A stretch of 64,000 nucleotides of DNA, from the NCBI GenBank assembly GCA_028289425.1, contig JANQPL010000009.1:324961-388960 (forward strand). The letters run 5' to 3'. The stretch comes from Alphaproteobacteria bacterium. Lineage in GTDB: Bacteria > Pseudomonadota > Alphaproteobacteria > JANQMY01. The notes under the pieces were generated by a model that searched no databases, was not told the origin of the DNA, and saw only the letters and a program-made list of their open reading frames with translations. Position numbers and translations under genes: made by a program. Positions 48,467 to 61,070 of this stretch are shown here, in pieces; the stretch's first letter is position 1; each line of letters begins with the position of its first letter.

Positions 48467-49147
48467 TCATTCCGCTGGGATACCCAACGAAACGTTCCTG
48501 TTTTCGCGGTTCCCCACCAGCGCAGATGCAAAACGGTGGTTCTTGTCGCGATGCCCTTCTTCATCGGCGCGCACCTGGATCACCACATCCCGCAGAGTAG
48601 CCGTTGCCGGCATGTGCCAGTATTTCAGTGCAATGTCCGGCGCCGGTACATTTTCCAGACGACCCGCATCGATCTCTTCCAGATAGCGCGTGTAACTGAC
48701 AACCGCTTCTTCTTCCAAATAACCAACAAAACGATGCGCCGTTTTCGGGAAGAACAAATAGAAGAAGAAATAGAAATTATAGAAGATTGCCTGGGCGAAC
48801 ATGATCAGCATACGTTCGAACATGTTCGGTTTGGCGATTTGGACAAACGTCATCAGATGCATGCGCTCGTTTTCCGCTTCATCGAGCAGTTCGCGGATCC
48901 ATCCCTGATCGTCGCGGATGTGGCGGAGCGCCTTGAGGTGCTGCAGCAGCCCACCCACCATGCCGGGCACCGCGGCAACGGTTTCCAACACCACCGCCCG
49001 GTGGCCATACCGTTTCTGGAAGAACAGATCCGCAAATATCCGCAAAAATTTAACGAGGCCCAGCGCAAGCCGGTCGCTCACGGATTGAACCGCGAAATGG
49101 GTGCCTGTGGCGACACCAGACCTGGGGGAAGACACATGCTCTGTCAT
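48467..49147 (-). CDS. aox: alternative oxidase (cyanide-insensitive ubiquinol oxidase)
   Basis: Di-iron ligand motifs [20 protein letters not shown] and RADEEGHRD are present. Confidence 0.8.
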
Positions 49148-49352
49148 TATTGCCTCCGCATGAAGCCAAGACGGGCGAAACGAGCCCACCTGTTAATTCT
49201 TAGGTAGAGCGCACTTGGTCGAAAACAATGTGACCAAAGGGCCCAAAGCCGTTCATTGGATTATCCAATGAGGTTTGTGTTTCTTGCCGATTAGCGCCTG
49301 CAAAACCGGCACCACGCTCCGCCCGAAAGGGACTGTTTAGGACGAAACCTAT

Positions 49353-49375
49353 AAGATGTATTCAACATACATCTA
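49353..49375. promoter_or_regulatory. candidate NsrR operator (AAGATGTATTC-A-ACATACATCTA) in the aox/nsrR divergent region
   Basis: An 11-1-11 inverted repeat closely resembles the enterobacterial NsrR consensus AAGATGCATTT-N-AAATGCATCTT. Additional half-sites occur at 49409-49419 and 49894-49904. Confidence 0.45.
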
Positions 49376-49444
49376 TATAGCGGCGCCCTTGATTTAAATC
49401 AATATGTGAAATACATCTTTTATGGAATTCTTGGAGGCATGACG

Positions 49445-49882
49445 ATGCGATTTACCCGCTATACGGATTATGCCCTTCGCGTCTTGATGTATTTGGGCCT
49501 CAAAGGCGAAGAGCTTTCCACGATCAAAGAGATTGCCGAGAGATACGGCATCTCCGAAAACCATTTGATGAAGGTGGTGCACAATTTGGGGCGCGAAGGC
49601 TTTATTGAAACCATTCGCGGGCGGCAAGGCGGCATGCGCTTGGCTCGTCCGCCGAAAGATATCAATGTCGGTGACGTGGTCCGCAAATGTGAAGACGATT
49701 TGCGCCTCGTGGAATGCTTCGATCCGGTCACCAACACCTGCCCGATTTCTGATGTCTGCGGCCTTGCGGGCATGATTGATGAAGCGCTGGCGGCGTTCAT
49801 GAAGGTGCTGGATAAGAAAACGTTGGCCGACATTCTAAAGACCAGCCCAGGAATGGCACCGATTTTGAAGCTTGCCGGATGA
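49445..49882 (+). CDS. nsrR: Rrf2 family transcriptional regulator, NsrR-like
   Basis: Rrf2 HTH (TRYTDYALRVLMYL) plus three C-terminal Cys (CxxxxxxCxxxxxC) for an Fe-S cluster. Confidence 0.75.
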   Translation: MRFTRYTDYALRVLMYLGLKGEELSTIKEIAERYGISENHLMKVVHNLGREGFIETIRGRQGGMRLARPPKDINVGDVVRKCEDDLRLVECFDPVTNTCPISDVCGLAGMIDEALAAFMKVLDKKTLADILKTSPGMAPILKLAG

Positions 49883-49974
49883 AATTCATTTAAAAGATGT
49901 ATTTTTGATATTGATTATCAAAGCGCTCTTTGCTATATAAACATGTATAGAAAATACACTTTTGAGTGAGCGAG

Positions 49975-50400
49975 ATGACCTCCATCGACGTGATTCCGGC
50001 CAATCCCAGACGCAAACCGCTGCACCCCGACATTTCGGAAGACATGATCGACCGGCTCGTCAAAGCGTTCTACGCAAAGGTGCGGGCGCACGACCGGCTG
50101 GGGCCGATCTTCGATACTGTCATCGGGGACAAATGGGAAGAGCATCTGCCGAAGATGAACGATTTCTGGTCGTCAGTGACCCGCATGACCGGGCGCTACA
50201 AGGGCAAGCCCATGGTCAAACATCTCAAGTTGAAGCAAGTGCAGCCGGAGGATTTCGACATTTGGCTTCAACTGTTCCGCGAAACGGCGGACGAGCTATT
50301 GCCCCCGGACATTGCGCCCATCTTTATCAGCCGGTCTGAACGGATCGCCGAAAGCCTCAAACTCGGCATGTTTTTCGCGCCAGTGGAGAAACCCAAATGA
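49975..50400 (+). CDS. group III truncated hemoglobin
   Basis: ~141 aa bacterial-globin-like protein (LVKAFYAKVRAHDRLGPIF ... KMNDFWSSV ... RYKGKPMVKH). Confidence 0.6.
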   Translation: MTSIDVIPANPRRKPLHPDISEDMIDRLVKAFYAKVRAHDRLGPIFDTVIGDKWEEHLPKMNDFWSSVTRMTGRYKGKPMVKHLKLKQVQPEDFDIWLQLFRETADELLPPDIAPIFISRSERIAESLKLGMFFAPVEKPK

Positions 50401-51919: not shown

Positions 51920-52438
51920 CTACTCCGTCAGGGCCTTTATGACCGCGTCGACCGTATCGCCGGCCTTGGCACGCATTTCATCGTCGGTAGCATCCTGAAT
52001 GGGATGTTCGACGAAGACACATCGGGCATCTTTCATACCCAATGCCGTTGCTTGCGTATCCGCCGCGTCAACAAATTCCGTGGACGCGATGGAAACTGAG
52101 GGAACCCCCTGAATTTCGAACCAAACCGTGTCATGCAAACTGCATGTCGTGCAGGATCCTCAATCGGCCAGGGCTTCGATAACGAAGTCGCACTCCCTTT
52201 TGATGTCGTGACGGAGATCGTCCGGGCACGGCTTTGTAAACGTGGGCTTGGCGAACCGTTTCACTTCAATGCCCGGCAGCTTTTCCTTGAGCATGCCTTC
52301 GAGCGCATCGAGATAGACGTCGCCGCGGGGCTTGCGGATGTCCATCAAGCCCACCACGCCGGAGATCGCTCCGCTGCGTGGCGTGACCTGCCGGGTCACC
52401 GGCACCGCTTCATTTGTCGGGTCAAGGATGGTGGTCAT
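51920..52438 (-). CDS. UGSC-family (seleno)protein, with in-frame TGA at 52160-52162
   Basis: ORFs 52160-52456 and 51920-52138 are in frame and are joined by the readthrough EALAD-U-G-S-C-TTCSL. I recall UGSC as a named (seleno)protein family. A hairpin (CUGCA-CGACA-UGCAG) lies 5 nt downstream. Confidence 0.6.
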
Positions 52439-52637
52439 CCTTTTTTCCTTTCTCAATTTCGAATGACTCTATATTGCCAGGGAGCACGCTGGGCGCCAAG
52501 ATCATATTTGGTCGCGCCTGCCTGCGCGAAGCCGGAGCTTCGCCCTGCGGGCCAAAGCCCTTCGGGCGACGGGTCGTTCGGCGAAGGCAGGCGATCGGGC
52601 GAAAAACCACGTACACTTTTCCTGATCGCGCTCCGAC

Positions 52638-54224
52638 TCAATCGCCGATTTTGCGCGAGACCGAAATGGAGCCCATCTCGCCGGTCGCCCAGCCGTGAAA
52701 CGCCCCTGAAAACTTGCCCGCATCGGACCCGGCCACGACGATGTGGATATAGACTTCGCTCAAGAACTTGGGCACCAACGAGTCAAGTTGTTCCGCCGTC
52801 ATATTGGCCGCCGCCTCCGGCTTGAGGCCGGCGCCGGAAATGTCATTGCCGACCATGTCGCGCAGCGGCCGCTTAGTCACTTCTTGGATACGTTCCCGCA
52901 AGCGCTTTTTGGAGTAATCGCCGTCCACCATCAGTGTGTCCACATGTTCCGGACACACCACCAGCAGCGTATCGATGGGCCAGCCGTGATATTTGGGATG
53001 AAAAACGCTTTCTAACCCCAGGCCCAATGTGCCCGCCATCTGATCGGGCTTGCGCGATTCCTGATCGACAATCAACGTCGGTCCGCTGGTCATGGCAAAG
53101 ATCGTGACCACGTTTTCGTCTTTTTTGAAGCCGCGCTCCACATGGAGCGGCTCCCATGGGTTGCGTTCTTCCCATTCGGCAAAGCACATGGTGAATTTCA
53201 TGGGATTGCCCAGGGTGGAGCGGTCCGTGCCGCCCGGTTTGGCGCCGCCTACATTGCGCACTACCAGGCGCAAGGCCCGGCCGATCGTTGCATTCGCGCG
53301 GCTGCCGTTCCCCAGCGCACCCAGCTTCATGTTCATATCGAGCTTGTGGCGGATGGGCCCGTTGATGATCATCACCGGCGCAGCCCCCATAGTGGTGGCG
53401 TTCACCCCATGAATATTGAATTCGTCCGTACACACAGCCTCCACGGCGGCGATTATGACGGGCATGTATTCGGGCTTACAGCCTGCCATGACGGCGTTGA
53501 TGGCGACTTTCTCAACGGTGACCTCACCCATATTGGGCGGCATGACGGCGATGACTTCCTGAGCGCCGCGTTTAGTGCCGTCGAGCATGCGCAACACCCG
53601 TTCCGGTGTGGGCGGAACCAGCGGCAGCCCGTCGGAGAAGCCTTGATCGAACATGAACTCGAACTCATCGTCCGCTTCGGCGATCTCGATCTTCCGGGCA
53701 CGGATGGGGCTATTATCGGCCTCGGCGCGCAAGCGGTCCGCCACCATAGGATCGACGGATTTTGAACCGCATCCCGGCCGCCATTCGGGCAGGTCGCCCC
53801 AAGCGATGCCGGCATCGTCGGCGCTGAGCACGCCCGCAATTTCTTTCTCAAGCGCTTCCCATTCCTCGCGCGCGAAACCGATCACCTTAGTGCCCGCGGT
53901 GCCATCGCCGCCCGCCCAGATGACGGTGGGCACGGTGTCAATCTCATTGTCGAAGGAAACTTTGCACCCCGATTCATCGAGGATGGGCACAGCCAGCTCA
54001 TGACGCTCTGAGAGAACAGCATTGCCTTCTTTGGTTTGGCCCAGCACCAGAATGTCGGCTTTGTCGCCCCAAGCGCGATGAAACCCGTCGAGCACCGGCA
54101 TCACCAGATTGCAGGTCGGACAGTCTTCCTTGACGAAACAGACAAGGGCCGGACGGCCGGTGGGGAAACGATGCGGCTTTCCCGCTGCATCGTTCAAGGC
54201 AAATGCATTTAGCGTTTCGGACAT
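52638..54224 (-). CDS. uncharacterized 528-aa protein: N-terminal thioredoxin-fold domain (CPTC) fused to a large domain of unknown function
   Basis: The VCFVKEDCPTCNLV CxxC motif sits in the first ~150 aa. I do not recognise the C-terminal ~370 aa. It lies inside the selenoprotein operon. Confidence 0.5.
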   Translation of the reverse strand: MSETLNAFALNDAAGKPHRFPTGRPALVCFVKEDCPTCNLVMPVLDGFHRAWGDKADILVLGQTKEGNAVLSERHELAVPILDESGCKVSFDNEIDTVPTVIWAGGDGTAGTKVIGFAREEWEALEKEIAGVLSADDAGIAWGDLPEWRPGCGSKSVDPMVADRLRAEADNSPIRARKIEIAEADDEFEFMFDQGFSDGLPLVPPTPERVLRMLDGTKRGAQEVIAVMPPNMGEVTVEKVAINAVMAGCKPEYMPVIIAAVEAVCTDEFNIHGVNATTMGAAPVMIINGPIRHKLDMNMKLGALGNGSRANATIGRALRLVVRNVGGAKPGGTDRSTLGNPMKFTMCFAEWEERNPWEPLHVERGFKKDENVVTIFAMTSGPTLIVDQESRKPDQMAGTLGLGLESVFHPKYHGWPIDTLLVVCPEHVDTLMVDGDYSKKRLRERIQEVTKRPLRDMVGNDISGAGLKPEAAANMTAEQLDSLVPKFLSEVYIHIVVAGSDAGKFSGAFHGWATGEMGSISVSRKIGD

Positions 54225-54228
54225 GTTT

Positions 54229-55428
54229 CTATTCGGTCGTCACCTTTTGGTTTCCCAGTGTGTGCACGGCGGAGGCGAACTCATTCAGTCCCAGGTCTTC
54301 CCGCATATCCGCCGTCACATCCGTAAAGTTGGGGTCGAGCGAAATGCCGATGCCGTCGGCAATGCGCACCATGCGTTCGAAATTGCCCACCACACCGGCT
54401 GCATCCACAAACTGCTCAGGGCTAACCGCCGCTAACAGATCAGTACGGGCTGCATCCAACGTCGCCTGATCGCCTTCAACAACGGCGTCGGCAAAGGCCG
54501 TTAGCTCCTTGCCCGCTGGGATCCGTTCGTCCACGCTTTCAGCGCCTTCAACAACACCCGTCAGTTCTACTTCTTCGCCGATCGATTGTGCGCTCACACG
54601 GAGCAGCATCGCATGAGCGGTCGTTCAATAGAAACAGTCGTTAAGTGCGGACACCCTCCCTGCAAGCAGTTCGATTTGAGGGCGCGACAGGTTTCGGCCT
54701 TCGTTGACCGCGCCGAATTTGCCGGCGGGAATGTATTGCACATCGCTTAAGGCGAACCAGTCACGCACGGCATCGGGCACCAAACTCAAGGCACGGGCCA
54801 CATTGGGAATGGTCTTGGCAAAATCCGCGCCCCATAGATCCTCGTCCGGCGCATGGGGTTGTTCCCGCGCCAGCATGGGGACATAGGCCTCGCCATCGAC
54901 CAAGGGGGCCGGCCGCGCTCCCGTCGGCTCTCCAGCGACGGGGCTCGGCAAAGCGTGCACCGGAACACCCAGGCCGCGGCAGGTTTGGTCCATGCTGCGG
55001 ATGGCAACCACGATTCCAAGCGCCTCCACATAATGACCATCCGAGAAACCTGCGTTCGCCAGATCTTCAATCGCTTTTTGGGTAATGCGGGTGACGTCCG
55101 TGACCATCATATGCACCATGGCGATGATGGGCTCCGTCAACACACCTTCCGTCATCGGATCAATGGTATGTTTGCCTTCGATGGTATAGGGGCTGAGTGC
55201 CTTTTTCCGCTCTACGCAAAACGGACATGTGATGGCTGCCCGCGCTTCTGCCGCAATACAAATGCGCTCAGCGCCGGTCCACCACGCGCCTGGCCGCGCG
55301 AGGCGGGACAGAACAACCGCATGGGCGTTCGCCATATCTTCCCGCACCGGCACTTTGCATGTCGCAAAGTCATTCGTGACATTGGCCAGTATGCCGGGGT
55401 CCCGTTGATCGTCGGTGATTTGTGGCAT
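54229..55428 (-). CDS. candidate tandem CMD/AhpD-like selenoprotein, with in-frame TGA at 54625-54627
   Basis: ORFs 54625-55428 and 54229-54609 are in frame. The readthrough is RVSALNDCFY-U-TTAH, i.e. the CMD core signature RVSxxNxCxxCxxxH with Sec at the second Cys. The first domain has TCPFC. Confidence 0.55.
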
Positions 55429-55452: not shown

Positions 55453-56241
55453 TTATTTGAGTGCTTTTTTGACAGCCTTGAGAACACGCTGCCCGTCGGA
55501 CCTTACTCTATAGTCACTCGATTGATCGATCCAGCGGATCGTGCCCGACGCATCGGTCAGGATGGTCGTGGGAATGGCCAGTGCTCGGCGCATCCCCCGG
55601 CTGTCGCGCGGATCGCCTGCCATGGCGTTGGGGTGCTCCACCCCGTAGGCCTTGATAACCTCCAGATCCGGATCGGCCAGTTGCAGCATGGAGAGCCCAT
55701 GTTTGCTGCGCATCGCGTCCGCCTGCTCGACCGTATTGGGGCTGATGGCGACCATTTTCACGCCCAGCGCGTCGAAATCATCTTGCAAGTCTTCCCATCG
55801 CTGCAACTCAGCGACACAGTAAGGTCACCAATGGCCCCGATAGAATTTGAGAAGCAGCGGGTCATTTTGCCCAGGCTCATATGCAAAAGTGCCCCCATCC
55901 CAATCGGCGGCAGCAAAGGCCGGAGCCGGCGCGCCCACTTTCACACCGACGCCCTTCGGCACCCCACCTTGAGAGAAGAGATAAAGGACAAAGCCGCCAA
56001 GGAGCACAGTGATGGCGGCAAGCGTGCCGCCGACCCAGCCCGGACCGAGAATGAGTGTCCAAACGGCCAACAGAAAACCTGTCAAAACCGACAGCTCGCT
56101 CAGAATGGGCCGCCGCGTGAACCCCTTCTTCAGAACAAGGATACGCCGAAAATAAAGCGCCATCCGCCCGATGACCAGCAGCATGGCCAGCGCAAGGGTG
56201 ACGTAGGGATTCCAGAGAAGTGAGAGAATTTGATCCGCCAT
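55453..56241 (-). CDS. candidate membrane-anchored redoxin selenoprotein (W-U-P-Y-C), with in-frame TGA at 55825-55827
   Basis: Three N-terminal transmembrane helices are followed by LKFYRGHW-U-PYCVAELQ, paralogous to the 45914 site. A GUCGCUG-AGUUG-CAGCGAU hairpin lies 9 nt after the UGA. It is directly downstream of selC. Confidence 0.55.
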
Positions 56242-56407: not shown

Positions 56408-56501
56408 TGGCGGAGGCGGATGGGAATCGAACCCACCACACGCATGGCTGCGTGTCACTGGTTTTGAAGACCAGGGAAGCCACCAGACTCCATTCGCCTC
56501 C
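56408..56501 (-). tRNA. selC: tRNA-Sec (selC), anticodon UCA
   Basis: The reverse complement reads GGAGGCGAAUGG ... CCUGGU-CUUCAAA-ACCAG ... GGUUCGAUUCC ... CCGCCUCCGCCA. It is ~94 nt with a long extra arm, an anticodon loop with UCA at positions 34-36, and an encoded CCA. Confidence 0.75.
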
Positions 56502-56584: not shown

Positions 56585-57649
56585 ATGGCGGACAAAGATA
56601 AGGTCCGGCTGACGCAGTACGCTGTGTCTGCTGGTTGAGCCGGTAAGCTCGGACCTGGGCAGTTGTCGCAAGTTTTGCGACCGTTGAAAGATATATTTCC
56701 GCAGGCGGATTTTCCCGATGTGCTGAGGGGGCTCAGCTCACCGGACGATGCCGCTGTGCTGAAACTGACCGACGAGTTGTCGATGGTAGCAACGGCGGAC
56801 TTCTTCGCGCCGGTGGTGGATGACCCCTACCAGTTCGGCGCCATCGCCGCCGCCAACGCCCTGTCTGATGTTTACGCAATGGGCGCCGAGCCAAAGCTCG
56901 CGCTTAATCTCGCAGGCTTTCCGAAAACACTGGACCTGGACATTCTGAACGAGATCTTCCGCGGCGGCGCCGACAAGGTGCGCGAGGCGGGCGCCGCCAT
57001 TGCCGGCGGTCACACCACCTTCGACGAAGAACCCAAATACGGCCTGGCGGTAATGGGTGTGCTGAACAAAGCGACCGCTTTCGCCAATGAAGGGGCCAAG
57101 CCCGGCGATCAGTTGATCCTCACCAAACCCATCGGTACGGGGATCATCACCACCGCCCTTAAACAAAGTAAGATCGACGAAAGCGACACCGAAGAAGCCG
57201 TCGCCAGCATGGCGCGCTTGAGCGCAGGCGCGGCGAAGATTTTGCGTGCCGCTCCCGCCGGCGCTGTCCATGCGGTCACCGACATTACCGGCTTCTCATT
57301 GGCGGGCCATGGGCATGAGATGGCGGATCAGTCGGGCGTTGCATTGGAGATTGCGTTTTCGAAGATCCCGCTGCTTGCCGGCACGGACGGCTTGGCCGCG
57401 CAAGGCGTCGCCCCCGGCGGCGCCGGACGGAACAAGGACTATTTCGGCCAATGGTTCGAGCGGGGGCCAAGCATCACCGACGCCCAAGAAACCATCGTCT
57501 TCGACCCGCAAACTTCCGGCGGCTTGCTGGTGGCCGTCGCGCCGCAAGCGCTTGAAAGTCTGATGGCCGATTTTTCCGAAGCAAGCGAGCCGGTTTGGCA
57601 TATCGGCAAGGTCACTGACGGTCCCAATGGCACCATTCACCTTGTTTAA
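56585..57649 (+). CDS. selD: selenide, water dikinase (selenophosphate synthetase), Sec-containing form with UGA at 56636-56638
   Basis: ATG 56585 is followed by KDKVRLTQYAVSAG-U-AGK, aligning with E. coli RLTQYSHGAGCGCK (Cys17). The downstream sequence is collinear with SelD (DFFAPVVDDPYQFG ... GGHT). Confidence 0.8.
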
Positions 57650-57707
57650 GGTGAAAGCTTTTCAGGCCGCTACCTGACGCGCTATCCTTCTTTAAACAGA
57701 AACTTGT

Positions 57708-57779
57708 CCGCCCCGCTCCCCCTTCCCAACCACCCCAAGGGTAACCTTATCGGGTGGTTGGGAAGGGGGAGCGGGGCGG
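57708..57779. repeat. long perfect palindromic element (28-bp stem), copy 2, in the selD-selA spacer
   Basis: CCGCCCCGCTCCCCCTTCCCAACCACCC-CAAGGGTAACCTTATC-GGGTGGTTGGGAAGGGGGAGCGGGGCGG. Confidence 0.6.
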
Positions 57780-57795
57780 TGAGGTCATACAAACA

Positions 57796-59184
57796 ATGGA
57801 CTCGAGCCTTTTTCGCAAAATCCCTCAGGTGAATGACCTGGCATTGAAACCGCACATCGCGCTGCTGGAAGGCGCGTGGAGCCGCGACGAGATGGTCGAT
57901 GCGCTACGCGCAGCACTCGATGAGGTGCGCGAGGGTCTGCGCAAGGGCACTGCCCTGCCCGATTTCGATAGCCCCGCCTTTGCCGCGCATATCGAAGCAC
58001 TCATGGCCGCCACAAGACAGCCCAGCCTGCGCCGCATCATCAATGCCACGGGCATCGTCATCCATACCAATTTGGGGCGCTCGCCCTTAGCACCGGCCGC
58101 CCTGGAAGCGATCCAAGAAACCGCTGCCGGTTACACAAACATCGAAATGACACTTGCGACGGGCCAGCGCGGCTCGCGCTACGATCATGTACGCGATTTG
58201 ATCTGTGAGCTGACAGGTGCGGAAGATGCAATTATGGTCAATAATTGCGCCGCCGCCGTTACCCTGGCGCTTGCTACCTTCGCCAAAGACAAAGAGGTCG
58301 TGGTCTCCCGCGGCGAACTGATCGAAATCGGCGGATCGTTCCGCATCCCGGATATCGTCGCCCAAAACGGCGCCACATTGCGCGAGGTGGGCACCACCAA
58401 CAAGACCCATTTGTCGGATTATCAAAACGCCATTACCGACGGCACAGCCGTTCTGCTGAAAACGCACACAAGTAACTACCGTATCGTCGGTTTCACCGCG
58501 TGCCCCGAACGAACGGCGCTCGCGAAACTTGCCAATGAAAACCAGCTTGTTTTGCTGGAAGATTTGGGCAGCGGGACGTTGATCGACCTCACCGCCTATG
58601 GCATCGGCGACGAGCCCACCGTGCAGCATTGTATCGCCTCCGGCGTGCACTTGGTGACGTTTTCCGGCGACAAGCTGCTGGGCGGACCCCAATGTGGAAT
58701 CATGGCGGGTAAGAAGGAGCTTGTGGCCAAACTGCGCAAGAACCCGCTGCTGCGGGCCATGCGCATCGACAAGCTATCGCTGGCGGCGTTAGAAGCCACC
58801 TTGCGGCTTTACAAGACACCTTTCGAGCCCGAAGAAGATATCCCGACGCTTCGCATGCTGACGGCAACGCCCGAAGAGCTGGAAGAGACGGCGCAGGATC
58901 TTGCGGCGGCGCTCAACGCCCTCCCGGAAGTAACCGCAACGACAGCCCAAACTATGAGCGAAGCGGGTGGCGGCTCCCTGCCTGCCCACCAGTTAGCGTC
59001 GTATTGCGTGCGCCTCACTGTCGGCACATTGACGCCGGATGCGTTGATGGCACGTCTGCGCCAGGGGGGAACACCGATCATCGCACGCATCTCCAAAGGC
59101 GACGTGATCTTGGATGTGCGCACGCTTTTGCCCGATGATGTATCGGATCTGCCGGGCCTGATCGGCGCCCTAGAGAGCACATGA
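57796..59184 (+). CDS. selA: L-seryl-tRNA(Sec) selenium transferase
   Basis: Collinear with E. coli SelA as I recall it ([44 protein letters not shown]). It carries the PLP-lysine region. Confidence 0.85.
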
Positions 59185-61070
59185 CCGAACAACTTTCTCT
59201 CGGCGTGATCGGCCATGTGGACCATGGCAAGACCACGTTGGTCAAAGCGCTCACCGGCATGGAAACCGACCGGCTGAAAGAAGAAAAGCTGCGCGGGCTT
59301 TCTATTGTGCTTGGGTTTGCCTACCTCGAAACCGAACGCGGCCTTATCGACTTTATCGACACACCCGGCCATGCGGATTTCGTCCGTACCATGATTTCCG
59401 GGGTGAGCGGCATCGACGCGGCACTCATCGTCATTTCCGCCAACGAGAAAATCATGCCGCAAACGGTGGAACACATTCGCATTGTGTCTCTGCTGGGTAT
59501 CGACCAGGCGGTGGTGGCGCTCACCAAAACTGATTTAGCGACGGATGACGAGATCCGCGATGCCACCACAGAGATAGAGGCCTATCTTGCCGACACGGCA
59601 TTTTCCAACGTGACCATCGTACCGGTGAGTGCGCCGGCGAACCACGGGGTCGACGACTTGGTGGCCGCGCTCAACACGCTGTTCGACACCAAACCCAAAC
59701 GCGCCGATGTGGGTCATTTCTACTTGCCCTTCGACCGGGTGTTTAGCGTGAAAGGCTTCGGCACGGTCGGCACCGGCACCCTCAGCGCGGGGCCCGTCGC
59801 CGTCGGCGATGTGGCGGAAATCGCGCCGGACGGCCGCAAAGCGCGGGTGCGCAGCCTGGAAGTCCACGGGGGTTCTGTTGAGCGCGCCCTGCCCGGCCAA
59901 AGGGTCGCCGCCAATGTGCGCTTGGAAGGCACCGGCGAGATAGCGAGGGGCAACGCACTCACCTCGCCCGACTGGCTGCCCGCATCGGACTATTGGGATG
60001 GCACACTTCAACTGTTAAGCGACGCGCCGAAGGAACTCAAAAGCGGGGCAAAGCTTCGCATCCTGCATGGCACGACGGAAGACATTGCCACGATCCGCTT
60101 GCTCGACAGAGAGCGCCTCAAGCCTGGTGAAACGGGTCCCGTCCAGTTTCGATTGGCCCAACCCGCCGTGGCCTGGCATCAGGAACGGTTCATCGTGCGT
60201 TCGATCACGCCCGTTCAAACCATTGGCGGCGGTCAATTCACGGACACCCAGGCCAAACGGCGCGGGCGCAAAGACAGCGCGATCACGGCGCCGTCCGAAA
60301 AAGCGGATGCCCGCACGACGGCCCTGCTGTCCATCGTCAATAATGCCGGAACGGACGGTATTTCCCTTGCGGAGCTTGGGCAGCGGGTGGACTTGCCGGA
60401 AGACGATCTGCGCCAGCTCTGCCTTAAACACGAATGCTCTATCGAACAAAACGGGCTGGTCTATGCCAGTGGCGTTATCACCGCCACGATGGAAAAGATC
60501 GCGGCGCTGCTGGGCGAATTTCATGAGGCCAATCCGACCCGCATGGGACAGCAACAAAGCGAGTTGGCGTCACGCCTGGGCGTTCCGCAACGCTTGTTCC
60601 GCTTCGCTATGGCGCTGATGGCCGATACCAAACAATTGAACATAAGCCAAGGCATTGTGCGCCTGACCTCATTCGACCCATTCGCGCAGCTTAAACCTGA
60701 CGAGCGCAAAATATTGGAGGCACTGGAACAGCGTTTGATCGAACAAGGCATCACCGCGCCGACGCTCAAAGAGCTCACAGAAGAAAACCCCAAATTCAAA
60801 GACATCTCGCGGTTTTTAGTGGATACAAACCATGCCATCGCGGTTTTCGATGAAAAACGAAAGAACCTGTTCTTCTTCCATCACAGTGCCATTGATGGGG
60901 CCATTGAGGATTTGCGAAAGGCCTTTCCACCGCCGGCGGCCTTCACAGCCAGTCAAGCCCGCGAGGCGCTGGGCACCACCCGCAAATATGTCATGCCGTT
61001 GCTGGGCCATCTGGACAAACAAAAAATTACGCGGCGCAAGGACGACATGCGCACGCTAGCAGTCCAATAA
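59181..61070 (+). CDS. selB: selenocysteine-specific elongation factor
   Basis: GTPase motifs GHVDHGKTT and DTPGH are followed by the C-terminal winged-helix extension. A 4-nt overlap with selA suggests translational coupling. Confidence 0.85.

What the first reader, a model, noticed from the sequence alone, without database searches (positions are those of the whole stretch)
52638..54224. Uncharacterized 528-aa Trx-fold (CPTC) fusion protein embedded between selenoprotein genes
The N-terminal ~150 aa are a thioredoxin-like domain with a CPTC motif. I cannot assign the remaining ~370 aa to any family (signature patches EFEFMFDQGFSDGLPLVPP, IHGVNATTMGAAPVMIINGPIRHKL). Its fixed position between the CMD selenoprotein and the UGSC selenoprotein suggests a dedicated reductase or partner for them. 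Together they could be a new peroxide/disulfide-handling system.
Basis: inference. Interest (0 to 1): 0.7.

Follow-up and report, generated by a model that had tools for sequence, protein, structure and literature searches.

The report
Partner subunit of UGSC selenoprotein
This gene encodes a thioredoxin-type domain fused to a large, undescribed domain with no known structural relatives, and that domain is almost always encoded beside (or fused to) the abundant but functionally unknown "UGSC" selenoprotein, so the two probably form one selenium-dependent reductase.

Summary

A UGSC gene with TGA lies directly downstream in 80/80 genomes. In a scan seeded on UGSC alone, 64 of 66 informative loci have CDOM directly upstream. 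CDOM and UGSC are also fused in both orders. The AhpD/CMD selenoprotein neighbour was found in 0/80 loci.

The electron-input module varies: a Trx domain here, a thioredoxin-reductase-like domain in P0440, or none. UGSC aligns weakly to PrdB/GrdB-type selenoproteins with the Sec positions in register.

Best reading: a two-subunit, thiol-driven selenoenzyme whose substrate is unknown. There is no evidence for peroxide handling. Public records name the protein only from its N-terminal domain.

The parts
52638..54224 (-). 528-aa gene: Trx domain + linker + CDOM (stop TGA at 52638-52640)
   Evidence: ORF and translation. At least 8000 homologues, the top 120 full-length at 65-100% identity.
53820..54224 (-). 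N-terminal ResA/TlpA-type thioredoxin-fold domain (aa 1-135); soluble, with no signal peptide or TM segment
   Evidence: Foldseek probability 1.00, TMt 0.75-0.85 to ResA/DsbE/StoA/TlpA. pLDDT about 90-96. Maximum KD19 hydropathy 1.22.
54111..54122 (-). CPTC redox motif (C35, C38)
   Evidence: Invariant C35 and C38 in 81 homologues. Diverse Trx-fused representatives carry CPTC, CATC or CETC.
53634..53819 (-). Linker (aa 136-197) with the invariant LPEW-RPG-C152-GS motif (C152 codon 53769-53771)
   Evidence: W142, P146, W148, G151, C152, G153 and S154 are invariant in alignment A1. pLDDT is lower at 151-197. The linker is present in Trx-fused and some other representatives.
52641..53633 (-). CDOM: an undescribed ~330-aa domain (aa 198-528). 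Motifs: DGLPLVPPT, AINAVMAG-C249, HGVNATTMG, NRANATIGRALRL, C347-FAEWEE, PEH427.
   Evidence: 5367 representative clusters at E<=1e-3. AF2 pLDDT 91.1, pTM 0.91. No PDB fold match. No family match.
53478..53480 (-). Codon of C249, the one cysteine conserved family-wide (candidate redox or catalytic Cys)
   Evidence: Cys in 48/50 diverse near-full-length CDOMs. Kept in the TrxR-CDOM fusion P0440, where C347 is lost.
51920..52438 (-). UGSC-family selenoprotein gene (172 aa), Sec codon TGA at 52160-52162, motif AD-U-GSC-TTC; the conserved partner
   Evidence: Downstream on the same strand in 80/80 loci, always with TGA.
52439..52637 (-). 199-nt GC-rich structured spacer between the two genes (unusually long; 10-70 nt in most loci)
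   Evidence: MFE -82.8 kcal/mol, z -1.76. Gaps in other loci.
54229..55428 (-). AhpD-related 'CFYUT' selenoprotein gene (Sec codon 54625-54627). Local neighbour only, not part of the conserved module. Its stop lies 4 nt before this gene's ATG.
   Evidence: NF041238 E=1.9e-126. Found in 0/80 related loci.
55453..56241 (-). Membrane-anchored Prx-like selenoprotein gene (W-U-PYC, Sec codon 55825-55827); local neighbour only
   Evidence: Found in 1/80 related loci.
56408..56501 (-). tRNA-Sec (selC)
   Evidence: ARAGORN and Rfam RF01852, 83.2 bits.
56585..61070 (+). selD (itself Sec-containing, TGA at 56636-56638), selA and selB. This Sec machinery often flanks the module in Alphaproteobacteria.
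   Evidence: TIGR00476, TIGR00474 and TIGR00475 above their cut-offs. Upstream reading. selA in 30 and selB in 31 of 80 loci.

Best explanation
The gene encodes the non-selenium subunit of a two-component, thiol-driven selenoenzyme. Its C-terminal domain (CDOM, aa 198-528) is an undescribed, widely distributed domain family. CDOM is the obligate partner of the UGSC selenoprotein encoded immediately downstream. Its N-terminal cytoplasmic thioredoxin-fold domain (CPTC) is a built-in electron-input module.

Proposed mechanism (inferred, not shown): NAD(P)H reduces thioredoxin reductase, which reduces the CPTC dithiol. Electrons then pass, possibly via the invariant linker Cys152, to the CDOM/UGSC active site. 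That site would be formed by the family-invariant Cys249 of CDOM and the Sec-x-x-Cys of UGSC. There a selenenyl-sulfide is reduced and a bound substrate is reduced in turn.

CDOM has many invariant Arg, Asn, Thr, Glu and His residues, so it most likely supplies the substrate pocket, and UGSC supplies the selenol. This is the division of labour seen in glycine and D-proline reductases, to whose Sec subunits UGSC appears distantly related.

The substrate is unknown. A small anionic organic molecule is my guess. A hydroperoxide or disulfide is the alternative.

Shown: domain anatomy, the pairing with UGSC, the fusions, and the swappable redox modules. Inferred: complex formation, the electron path, and the catalytic roles.
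For: 1. Forward linkage. A UGSC gene lies directly downstream on the same strand in 80/80 species-level genome loci from Alpha- and Gammaproteobacteria, always with TGA. The motif AD-U-GSCTTC occurs in 79/80.

2. Reverse linkage. A metagenome scan seeded only on the UGSC motif returned 80 loci. 64 have CDOM directly upstream on the same strand, 14 lack upstream sequence, and 2 are true exceptions.

3. Fusions. 21 of the 150 representatives from the exhaustive search are CDOM-UGSC fusions (ORFs ending '...ALAD' at the Sec UGA) or UGSC-CDOM fusions (D-C-GSC).

4. Pairing in every sampled architecture and phylum. This covers stand-alone CDOM (L081, L083, L085, L166, L167), tandem CDOM-CDOM (P0404) and TrxR-CDOM (L168), 7 of 7 contexts. 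The pairing persists across inserted mobile elements.

5. Swappable reductant modules. These are the Trx domain with invariant CxxC and, in P0440, a Pyr_redox_2 domain with the canonical CATC site fused to CDOM (E=5e-36; CDOM 36% identical, E=5e-49).

6. Enzyme-like conservation in CDOM. C249 is 96% conserved, H427 92% and C347 86%. N311, R316 and E350 are conserved in at least 95% of the 50 diverse CDOMs, and T277, T278 and R309 in 85-95%.

7. UGSC versus PrdB/GrdB-like selenoproteins. hhalign score 32.3, P=4.6e-4, with Sec aligned on Sec. Reversed or unrelated controls score 14-18. 100 column shuffles give 13.1 +/- 2.7 with maximum 24. With the U-G-S-C motif masked the score is still 26.2.

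8. No other gene is consistently linked.
Against: - No biochemical data exist for UGSC or CDOM. Reviews up to 2026 list UGSC as uncharacterised.
- Physical interaction and the proximity of C249 to Sec were not modelled.
- The UGSC-GrdB/PrdB similarity has only 33% HHalign probability, and hmmscan does not see it.
- CDOM shows no similarity to the GrdE/PrdA pyruvoyl proproteins, and no GrdA/C/D-like genes are nearby.
- C347 and the third Cys of UxxCxxC are not universal.
- Some Trx-fused representatives lack an obvious CxxC.
- Two UGSC genes have no adjacent CDOM.
Confidence: 0.62

Rival explanations
1. The protein is a dedicated disulfide reductase that recycles the neighbouring selenoproteins (UGSC and the CMD/AhpD protein). 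These would be the actual enzymes of a peroxide/disulfide-handling system, and CDOM would be merely a docking scaffold.
For: A Trx domain with CxxC is present. In this window the gene sits among Prx-like and AhpD-like selenoproteins, and its ATG lies 4 nt after the AhpD-like stop. UxxC selenoproteins are often peroxidase- or oxidoreductase-like.
Against: The CMD neighbour occurs in 0/80 loci and the Prx-like gene in 1/80. The Trx domain is the dispensable part: most CDOM proteins lack it yet still pair with UGSC. CDOM carries dense invariant polar residues, which is atypical for a passive scaffold. No peroxiredoxin or AhpD signature is present in the protein.
Confidence: 0.15
2. CDOM is a selenium- or Sec-handling or maturation factor. 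For example, it could deliver or salvage selenium, or chaperone or modify UGSC, rather than act as a catalytic subunit. That would explain its frequent placement right after selA-selB.
For: selA and selB lie directly upstream and co-directional in about 30/80 loci. In the window the gene sits in a Sec island with selC, selD, selA and selB. UGSC is almost never found as a Cys form: 80/80 and 80/80 TGA here, and 255 Sec versus 21 Cys in GOS.
Against: Linkage to the sel genes is confined to part of the Alphaproteobacteria and is absent in Gammaproteobacteria and other phyla. Stoichiometric gene fusions with UGSC, and fusions to Trx and TrxR modules, fit an enzyme subunit better. Cys-type UGSC-CDOM fusions exist, where no selenium handling is needed.
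Confidence: 0.1
3. The protein is an ordinary TlpA-family disulfide reductase, as annotated, with an unrelated C-terminal extension. Its adjacency to UGSC would be incidental.
For: Public names are 'TlpA family protein disulfide reductase' or 'peroxiredoxin'. The N-domain resembles ResA/TlpA structurally.
Against: There is no signal peptide or membrane anchor. Scores are far below family cut-offs. CDOM is an autonomous family that occurs without Trx. Linkage with UGSC is near-obligate in both directions and includes fusions.
Confidence: 0.02

Closest known systems
Glycine/sarcosine/betaine reductase protein B (GrdB + GrdE) and D-proline reductase (PrdB + PrdA)
   Same: Both are two-subunit selenoenzymes in which a Sec subunit with U-x-x-C(-x-x-C) works with a larger non-Sec substrate-binding subunit and draws electrons from the thioredoxin system (PMC13188914, PMC6778437). 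The window's UGSC has U-GS-C-TT-C. UGSC aligns to PrdB/GrdB-like reads with Sec in register, well above controls.
   Different: UGSC (172 aa) is much smaller and does not reach the GRDB Pfam model. CDOM has no detectable relation to the GrdE/PrdA pyruvoyl proproteins. No GrdA, GrdC, GrdD or PrdC genes accompany it. The hosts are largely Alpha- and Gammaproteobacteria and soil or freshwater lineages, by record titles, which from general knowledge are mostly aerobes rather than amino-acid-fermenting anaerobes. The electron-donor domain is fused to the partner subunit.
TlpA/ResA/DsbE/StoA thioredoxin-fold thiol:disulfide oxidoreductases
   Same: The N-terminal 135 aa have the same fold (TMt 0.75-0.85), a CxxC motif and a conserved Pro loop.
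   Different: Those proteins are extracytoplasmic and membrane-anchored, and act in cytochrome maturation. This domain has no anchor or signal, scores far below family thresholds, and is fused to a 330-aa cytoplasmic domain.
'UGSC/Unknown_1' fusion noted by Zhang & Gladyshev 2008 (PMC2398784)
   Same: That paper reports that the UGSC-containing selenoprotein is sometimes fused to a conserved domain of unknown function, which also occurs alone in some aquatic organisms. This is plausibly CDOM.
   Different: Identity could not be verified: the figure is an image and the stored dataset is cut. The paper reports no separate-gene pairing, no Trx or TrxR fusions, no family size and no structure.
AhpF-AhpC and NTRC-type systems (a reductase module fused or dedicated to one peroxidase partner); comparison from general knowledge
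   Same: The architectural logic is shared: a dedicated Trx or TrxR-type module is attached to, or encoded beside, the protein it reduces. Compare Trx-CDOM and TrxR-CDOM.
   Different: The acceptor here is not a peroxiredoxin. It is a novel domain plus a Rossmann-like selenoprotein. No peroxidase signature was found.

Membership tests
TlpA/ResA-type thiol:disulfide oxidoreductase (the public annotation) | Thioredoxin fold | tested here: met
   Foldseek on the AF2 model: ResA, DsbE, StoA and TlpA at probability 1.00, TMt 0.75-0.85.
TlpA/ResA-type thiol:disulfide oxidoreductase (the public annotation) | CxxC active site and conserved (cis-)Pro loop | tested here: met
   CPTC at aa 35-38. C35, C38 and P99 (in TVPT) are invariant in 81 homologues. 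The cis conformation itself cannot be tested here.
TlpA/ResA-type thiol:disulfide oxidoreductase (the public annotation) | Score above curated family thresholds | tested here: not met
   AhpC-TSA 12.5 bits against a cut-off of 26. ResA subfamily 13 against 170. MauD 19 against 189.
TlpA/ResA-type thiol:disulfide oxidoreductase (the public annotation) | Extracytoplasmic location (signal peptide or membrane anchor) | tested here: not met
   No hydrophobic segment: maximum 19-residue Kyte-Doolittle mean 1.22, with a polar N-terminus.
CDOM (undescribed family; possibly 'Unknown_1' of PMC2398784) | A ~330-aa domain with DGLPxVPPT ... AINAVMAGC ... NRANATIGRA ... motifs, homologous across the family | tested here: met
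   phmmer found 5367 clusters at E<=1e-3 and 1399 at E<=1e-30. Conserved columns.
CDOM (undescribed family; possibly 'Unknown_1' of PMC2398784) | Encoded next to, or fused with, a UGSC-family (seleno)protein | tested here: met
   80/80 forward, 64/66 reverse, 21/150 fusions and 7/7 sampled other contexts.
UGSC family (NF041046 / PF24696): the downstream partner | HMM score above cut-off and Sec/Cys at the U-G-S-C position | tested here: met
   PF24696 162.6 bits (cut-off 25). NF041046 169.5 bits (cut-off 125). TGA at 52160-52162 within AD-U-GSC.
Glycine/D-proline reductase type selenoenzyme (protein B) | Sec subunit with a UxxC(xxC) motif | tested here: met
   U-GS-C-TT-C in the window and in 79/80 loci. 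The motif definition comes from PMC6778437 and PMC13188914. The third Cys is absent in distant UGSCs.
Glycine/D-proline reductase type selenoenzyme (protein B) | Sec subunit homologous to GRDB (PF07355) | tested here: inconclusive
   hhalign against 9 GOS PrdB/GrdB-like reads gave P=4.6e-4 and probability 33%, with Sec in register and controls clearly lower. hmmscan found no GRDB hit at E<=10.
Glycine/D-proline reductase type selenoenzyme (protein B) | Partner subunit is a GrdE/PrdA-type pyruvoyl proprotein | tested here: not met
   No Pfam family recurs in the CDOM parts of 70 members at E<=10. Self-cleavage or a pyruvoyl group at a Cys cannot be tested here.
Glycine/D-proline reductase type selenoenzyme (protein B) | Accompanying GrdA/GrdC/GrdD or PrdC-type genes | tested here: not met
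   Neighbourhood censuses of 80 and 38 loci show no such recurrent genes.
Glycine/D-proline reductase type selenoenzyme (protein B) | Electrons supplied by the thioredoxin system | not testable with these tools
   Fusions of Trx (this gene) and of a TrxR-like domain with CATC (P0440) to CDOM are consistent with this. Electron transfer itself needs an assay.
Peroxiredoxin (AhpC/TSA) | Family HMM above threshold and peroxidatic-Cys context | tested here: not met
   AhpC-TSA E=0.14, 12.5 bits against a cut-off of 26. The motif is a CxxC of ResA type.
   tblastn with the window's AhpD_rel_CFYUT protein found 0/80 loci.

The most novel reading that the evidence does not exclude
CDOM + UGSC is a previously unrecognised class of selenium-dependent reductase. 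A novel-fold catalytic subunit would work with a miniature GrdB/PrdB-like selenocysteine subunit and would be fed directly by fused Trx or TrxR modules. The class would be widespread in aquatic and soil bacteria, probably mostly aerobic. It would explain why UGSC, one of the most abundant environmental selenoproteins, almost never tolerates Cys in place of Sec. It might catalyse a reductive bond cleavage of a common small metabolite, analogous to glycine, betaine or proline reductases but outside fermentative anaerobes.
Probability: 0.22. Interest if true: 0.85.

Novelty: new variant of a known kind. Interest (0 to 1): 0.62.

Why it matters
UGSC ranked among the five most abundant selenoprotein families in the Global Ocean Sampling data, with 255 Sec forms against 21 Cys forms, and was the top family in several non-marine samples (PMC2398784). 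It is still listed as functionally uncharacterised in 2022 and 2026 reviews.

This work shows that UGSC has a near-obligate partner: a large, undescribed and structurally orphan domain family. Evolution has repeatedly attached thioredoxin or thioredoxin-reductase modules to that partner. An isolated "unknown selenoprotein" therefore becomes a defined, testable two-subunit reductase, with candidate active-site residues (C249 and U-x-x-C) and a predicted electron donor.

The result also corrects a systematic annotation error. Thousands of database entries are named "TlpA family protein disulfide reductase" from the minor domain. It also flags a domain family of more than 5,000 clusters that deserves a Pfam or NCBIfam model.

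Tried and rejected
1. **CMD/AhpD and Prx-like selenoproteins as conserved partners.** Rejected: found in 0/80 and 1/80 loci.
2. **Assigning CDOM to a known family.** All of these were negative:
   - Pfam and NCBIfam on the protein.
   - Pfam on 10 diverse representatives.
   - Pfam on 70 alignment members at E<=10.
   - NCBIfam on stand-alone and tandem forms.
   - PDB sequences with a single sequence and with a profile.
4. **Internal duplication in CDOM.** None detected by hhalign of sub-segments.
5. **Read-through of the gene's own TGA stop into the 199-nt spacer.** Rejected. Orthologues stop at the same place with TAA or TAG in 44/80 loci, and the extension looks non-coding.
6. **L166 separate Trx-like gene as evidence for a three-gene module.** Rejected: it is a membrane-anchored WCPPC TlpA-type protein.
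7. **SECIS-like hairpins after the three UGAs.** Small hairpins exist but are no more stable than shuffles, so they are uninformative.
8. **Verifying that 'Unknown_1' of the 2008 paper equals CDOM.** Not possible: the figure is an image, the dataset is truncated and the motifs were not found.
9. **UGSC profile against PDB.** Only a weak Rossmann-type match to 3-hydroxyacyl-CoA dehydrogenase N-domains, E=0.012.
10. **Other recurrent neighbours.** The only recurrent ones were selA and selB, seen only in loci whose records are mostly labelled Alphaproteobacteria or Pseudomonadota, and lineage-specific metabolic genes.
Full report
**1. The observation**

The ORF exists, but on the minus strand: ATG at 54224, TGA stop at 52638-52640, 528 codons. 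The plus-strand frame over the same coordinates is full of stops. CPTC lies at aa 35-38.

Both flanking genes on the same strand carry an in-frame TGA with conserved sequence on either side.
- Downstream is a UGSC-family gene, 51920-52438, motif ...EALAD-U-GSCTTC..., with PF24696 E=1e-47 and NF041046 above its cut-off.
- Upstream is an AhpD-related 'CFYUT' gene, 54229-55428, with NF041238 E=2e-126.
- Further upstream lie a membrane-anchored Prx-like selenoprotein (W-U-PYC) and tRNA-Sec. On the other strand lie selD, selA and selB.

The gene therefore sits inside a compact selenocysteine island.

**2. Anatomy of the protein**

*N-terminal domain (aa 1-135).* Sequence models detect it only weakly: MauD E=6e-4, AhpC-TSA E=0.14, PDB thioredoxins E about 0.1-1. 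The AlphaFold2 model (81-sequence alignment, mean pLDDT 83.7, N-domain about 90-96) matches ResA, DsbE, StoA and TlpA with Foldseek probability 1.00 and TMt 0.75-0.85. C35, C38 and P99 (TVPT loop) are invariant in 81 homologues. Unlike TlpA and ResA, there is no signal peptide or membrane anchor, so this is a cytoplasmic redox domain.

*Linker (aa 136-197).* It contains an invariant LPEW-RPG-C152-GS motif.

*C-terminal domain (aa 198-528, here called CDOM).* It matches no Pfam or NCBIfam model. This holds for the window protein, for 10 diverse relatives and for 70 alignment members at E<=10. A family profile finds nothing among PDB sequences at E<=10.

**3. CDOM is an autonomous, large family**

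An exhaustive phmmer search with aa 150-528 found 5,367 clusters (50% identity) at E<=1e-3 and 1,399 at E<=1e-30. The architectures among the best 150 representatives were:

| Architecture | Count |
|---|---|
| CDOM alone (~350 aa) | 80 |
| Trx-(linker)-CDOM | ~23 |
| Linker-CDOM without a detected Trx domain | ~16 |
| UGSC-CDOM | 11 |
| CDOM-UGSC | 10 |
| Tandem CDOM-CDOM (~710 aa) | ~10 |

The CDOM-UGSC ORFs terminate at '...ALAD', exactly where the Sec UGA lies. Fusions that span the Sec position carry D-C-GSC.

Family-wide, C249 (in AINAVMAGC) is conserved in 48/50 sequences, H427 in 46/50 and C347 in 43/50. Several Arg, Asn, Thr and Glu positions are also conserved.

Public sources call the Trx-fused form 'TlpA family protein disulfide reductase', 'peroxiredoxin' or 'hypothetical'. 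They call the stand-alone form 'hypothetical protein'.

**4. The conserved context is UGSC and nothing else**

*Forward test.* A scan of one genome per species found at least 588 genomes with a full-length relative, mostly labelled Alphaproteobacteria (Hyphomonadaceae, Caulobacteraceae, Rhodobacteraceae) or Gammaproteobacteria (Pseudomonadales). In all 80 loci retained, a UGSC gene follows on the same strand, always with TGA, and 79/80 carry AD-U-GSCTTC. The AhpD-like neighbour was found in 0/80 and the Prx-like in 1/80.

*Reverse test.* A metagenome scan seeded only on the UGSC motif gave 80 loci, all with TGA. Of these, 64 have CDOM directly upstream on the same strand and 14 have too little upstream DNA to judge. 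Two are genuine exceptions, with transporter or acyl-CoA dehydrogenase genes upstream.

*Other architectures.* Stand-alone CDOM genes from other phyla are also paired with UGSC.
- Adjacent: L081 and L167.
- Reversed order: L166.
- Separated only by an inserted transposase (L083) or restriction-modification cassette (L085).
- A tandem CDOM-CDOM gene (P0404) has UGSC one gene upstream.

*Other neighbours.* Censuses found no other consistently linked gene. The only recurrent ones were selA and selB (about 30/80, in alphaproteobacterial-type loci where the order is selA-selB-TrxCDOM-UGSC) and lineage-specific metabolic genes.

**5. The reductant module is interchangeable**

In the proteobacterial clade CDOM carries the Trx domain. 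In P0440 (L168) the N-terminus is instead a low-Mr thioredoxin-reductase-like flavoprotein domain (Pyr_redox_2, E=5e-36) with the canonical SECATCDG site. It is fused to a CDOM that is 36% identical to the window's (E=5e-49). A UGSC gene (D-U-GGC) follows immediately. Most other CDOMs carry no such module.

This pattern argues that CDOM/UGSC is the electron-accepting catalytic core. The Trx domain of the window protein would be a dedicated electron feeder rather than the essence of the protein.

**6. What UGSC resembles**

The literature describes UGSC only as an abundant selenoprotein of unknown function. It was first noted in Hyphomonas neptunium. It had 255 Sec against 21 Cys forms in GOS and was sometimes fused to an uncharacterised 'Unknown_1' domain (PMC1976440, PMC2398784, PMC9312934, PMC13188914). 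I could not verify that Unknown_1 is CDOM.

GrdB/F/H selenoproteins are defined by a UxxCxxC motif. The proteobacterial UGSC has U-GS-C-TT-C, but distant UGSCs keep only UxxC.

I built a small profile from PrdB/GrdB-like reads in the GOS supplement and compared it with a profile of 162 UGSC sequences using hhalign.
- The two profiles align over 85 columns with the Sec positions superposed.
- Score 32.3, P=4.6e-4, probability 33%.
- Reversed or unrelated profiles score 14-18.
- 100 column-shuffled controls give 13.1 +/- 2.7, with a maximum of 24.
- Masking the U-G-S-C columns leaves a score of 26.2.

hmmscan does not detect GRDB in UGSC. I therefore treat a distant relationship to the Sec module of glycine and proline reductases as a supported lead, not as established.

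**7. Mechanism**

*Shown:* domain anatomy, near-obligate bidirectional linkage and fusion of CDOM with UGSC, the Sec requirement of UGSC, and alternative Trx and TrxR input modules.

*Inferred:* CDOM and UGSC form one enzyme. Electrons flow from NAD(P)H through TrxR to CPTC, perhaps via C152, and on to a C249 / Sec-x-x-Cys centre. CDOM provides the substrate pocket and UGSC provides the selenol.

The substrate is unknown. The many invariant arginines suggest an anionic small molecule. A hydroperoxide or disulfide cannot be excluded, but no peroxiredoxin or AhpD signature was found in the protein.

*Membership:* the system does not meet the defining features of glycine or proline reductases. 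There is no GrdE/PrdA-like partner and no GrdA/C/D genes. It may work like them but is not a member.

**8. Verdict**

The gene is common in databases but is named only from its minor domain. CDOM is undescribed and structurally orphan. Its obligate pairing with one of the most abundant environmental selenoproteins has not been reported in the papers I could search, beyond a one-line mention of a fusion in 2008.

I rate it a new variant of a known kind (a thioredoxin-fed selenoenzyme), with interest 0.62. There is about a one-in-five chance that it is a new class of selenium-dependent reductase.

Noticed in passing
window 56585-57649 (+): SelD is itself a selenoprotein here. The real start is ATG 56585, and an in-frame TGA at 56636-56638 lies in '...YAVSAG-U-AGKLGPGQ...'. 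The mechanical ORF list starts only at 56663. With the Prx-like, AhpD-like and UGSC genes, this makes four Sec genes plus selC, selA and selB within about 9 kb.
   Followed up: partly
window 52439-52637 (-): The spacer between the 528-aa gene and UGSC is unusually long (199 nt) and GC-rich, and it folds stably (-82.8 kcal/mol, z -1.76). Other loci have 10-70 nt here. It is single-copy in the window and its function is unknown. It could be an attenuator, a processing site or a REP-like remnant.
   Followed up: partly
L168 5001-7367 (protein P0440): A thioredoxin-reductase-like flavoprotein domain (CATC site) is fused to CDOM and followed by a UGSC gene with D-U-GGC. This is an alternative electron-input architecture for the same module.
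   Followed up: yes
L083 6351-7656; L085 6227-8455: Mobile DNA is inserted exactly between CDOM and UGSC: a Transposase_20 element in L083, and a restriction-modification cassette (N6_N4_Mtase, BglII-like endonuclease, MT-A70) in L085. The pair stays co-directional.
   Followed up: no
proteins P0137, P0146, P0159, P0174, P0181, P0236, P0404 (~710 aa): These are tandem CDOM-CDOM proteins. The P0404 context shows a 191-aa UGSC call (apparently uninterrupted, so possibly a Cys form) and another 335-aa gene without Pfam upstream, flanked by TctC and Rieske oxygenase genes. No DNA was available to check.
   Followed up: partly
window 55453-56241 (-): A Prx-like selenoprotein (W-U-PYC) has a ~100-aa N-terminal hydrophobic region, probably about three TM helices by eye. 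It gives weak NCBIfam hits to thiol peroxidase, ResA and 'SelL-related redox protein'.
   Followed up: partly
L101 and L109: These two UGSC genes (TGA) have no adjacent CDOM. Upstream are ABC-type peptide permeases and an acyl-CoA dehydrogenase. Whether CDOM lies elsewhere in those genomes is unknown, because the contigs are short.
   Followed up: partly
window 48467-50400: By eye only: ORFs resembling an alternative oxidase (48467-49189, -), an Rrf2-type regulator (49406-49882, +) and a small globin-like protein (49966-50400, +) lie just beyond the selenoprotein cluster. They were not checked with any tool.
   Followed up: no
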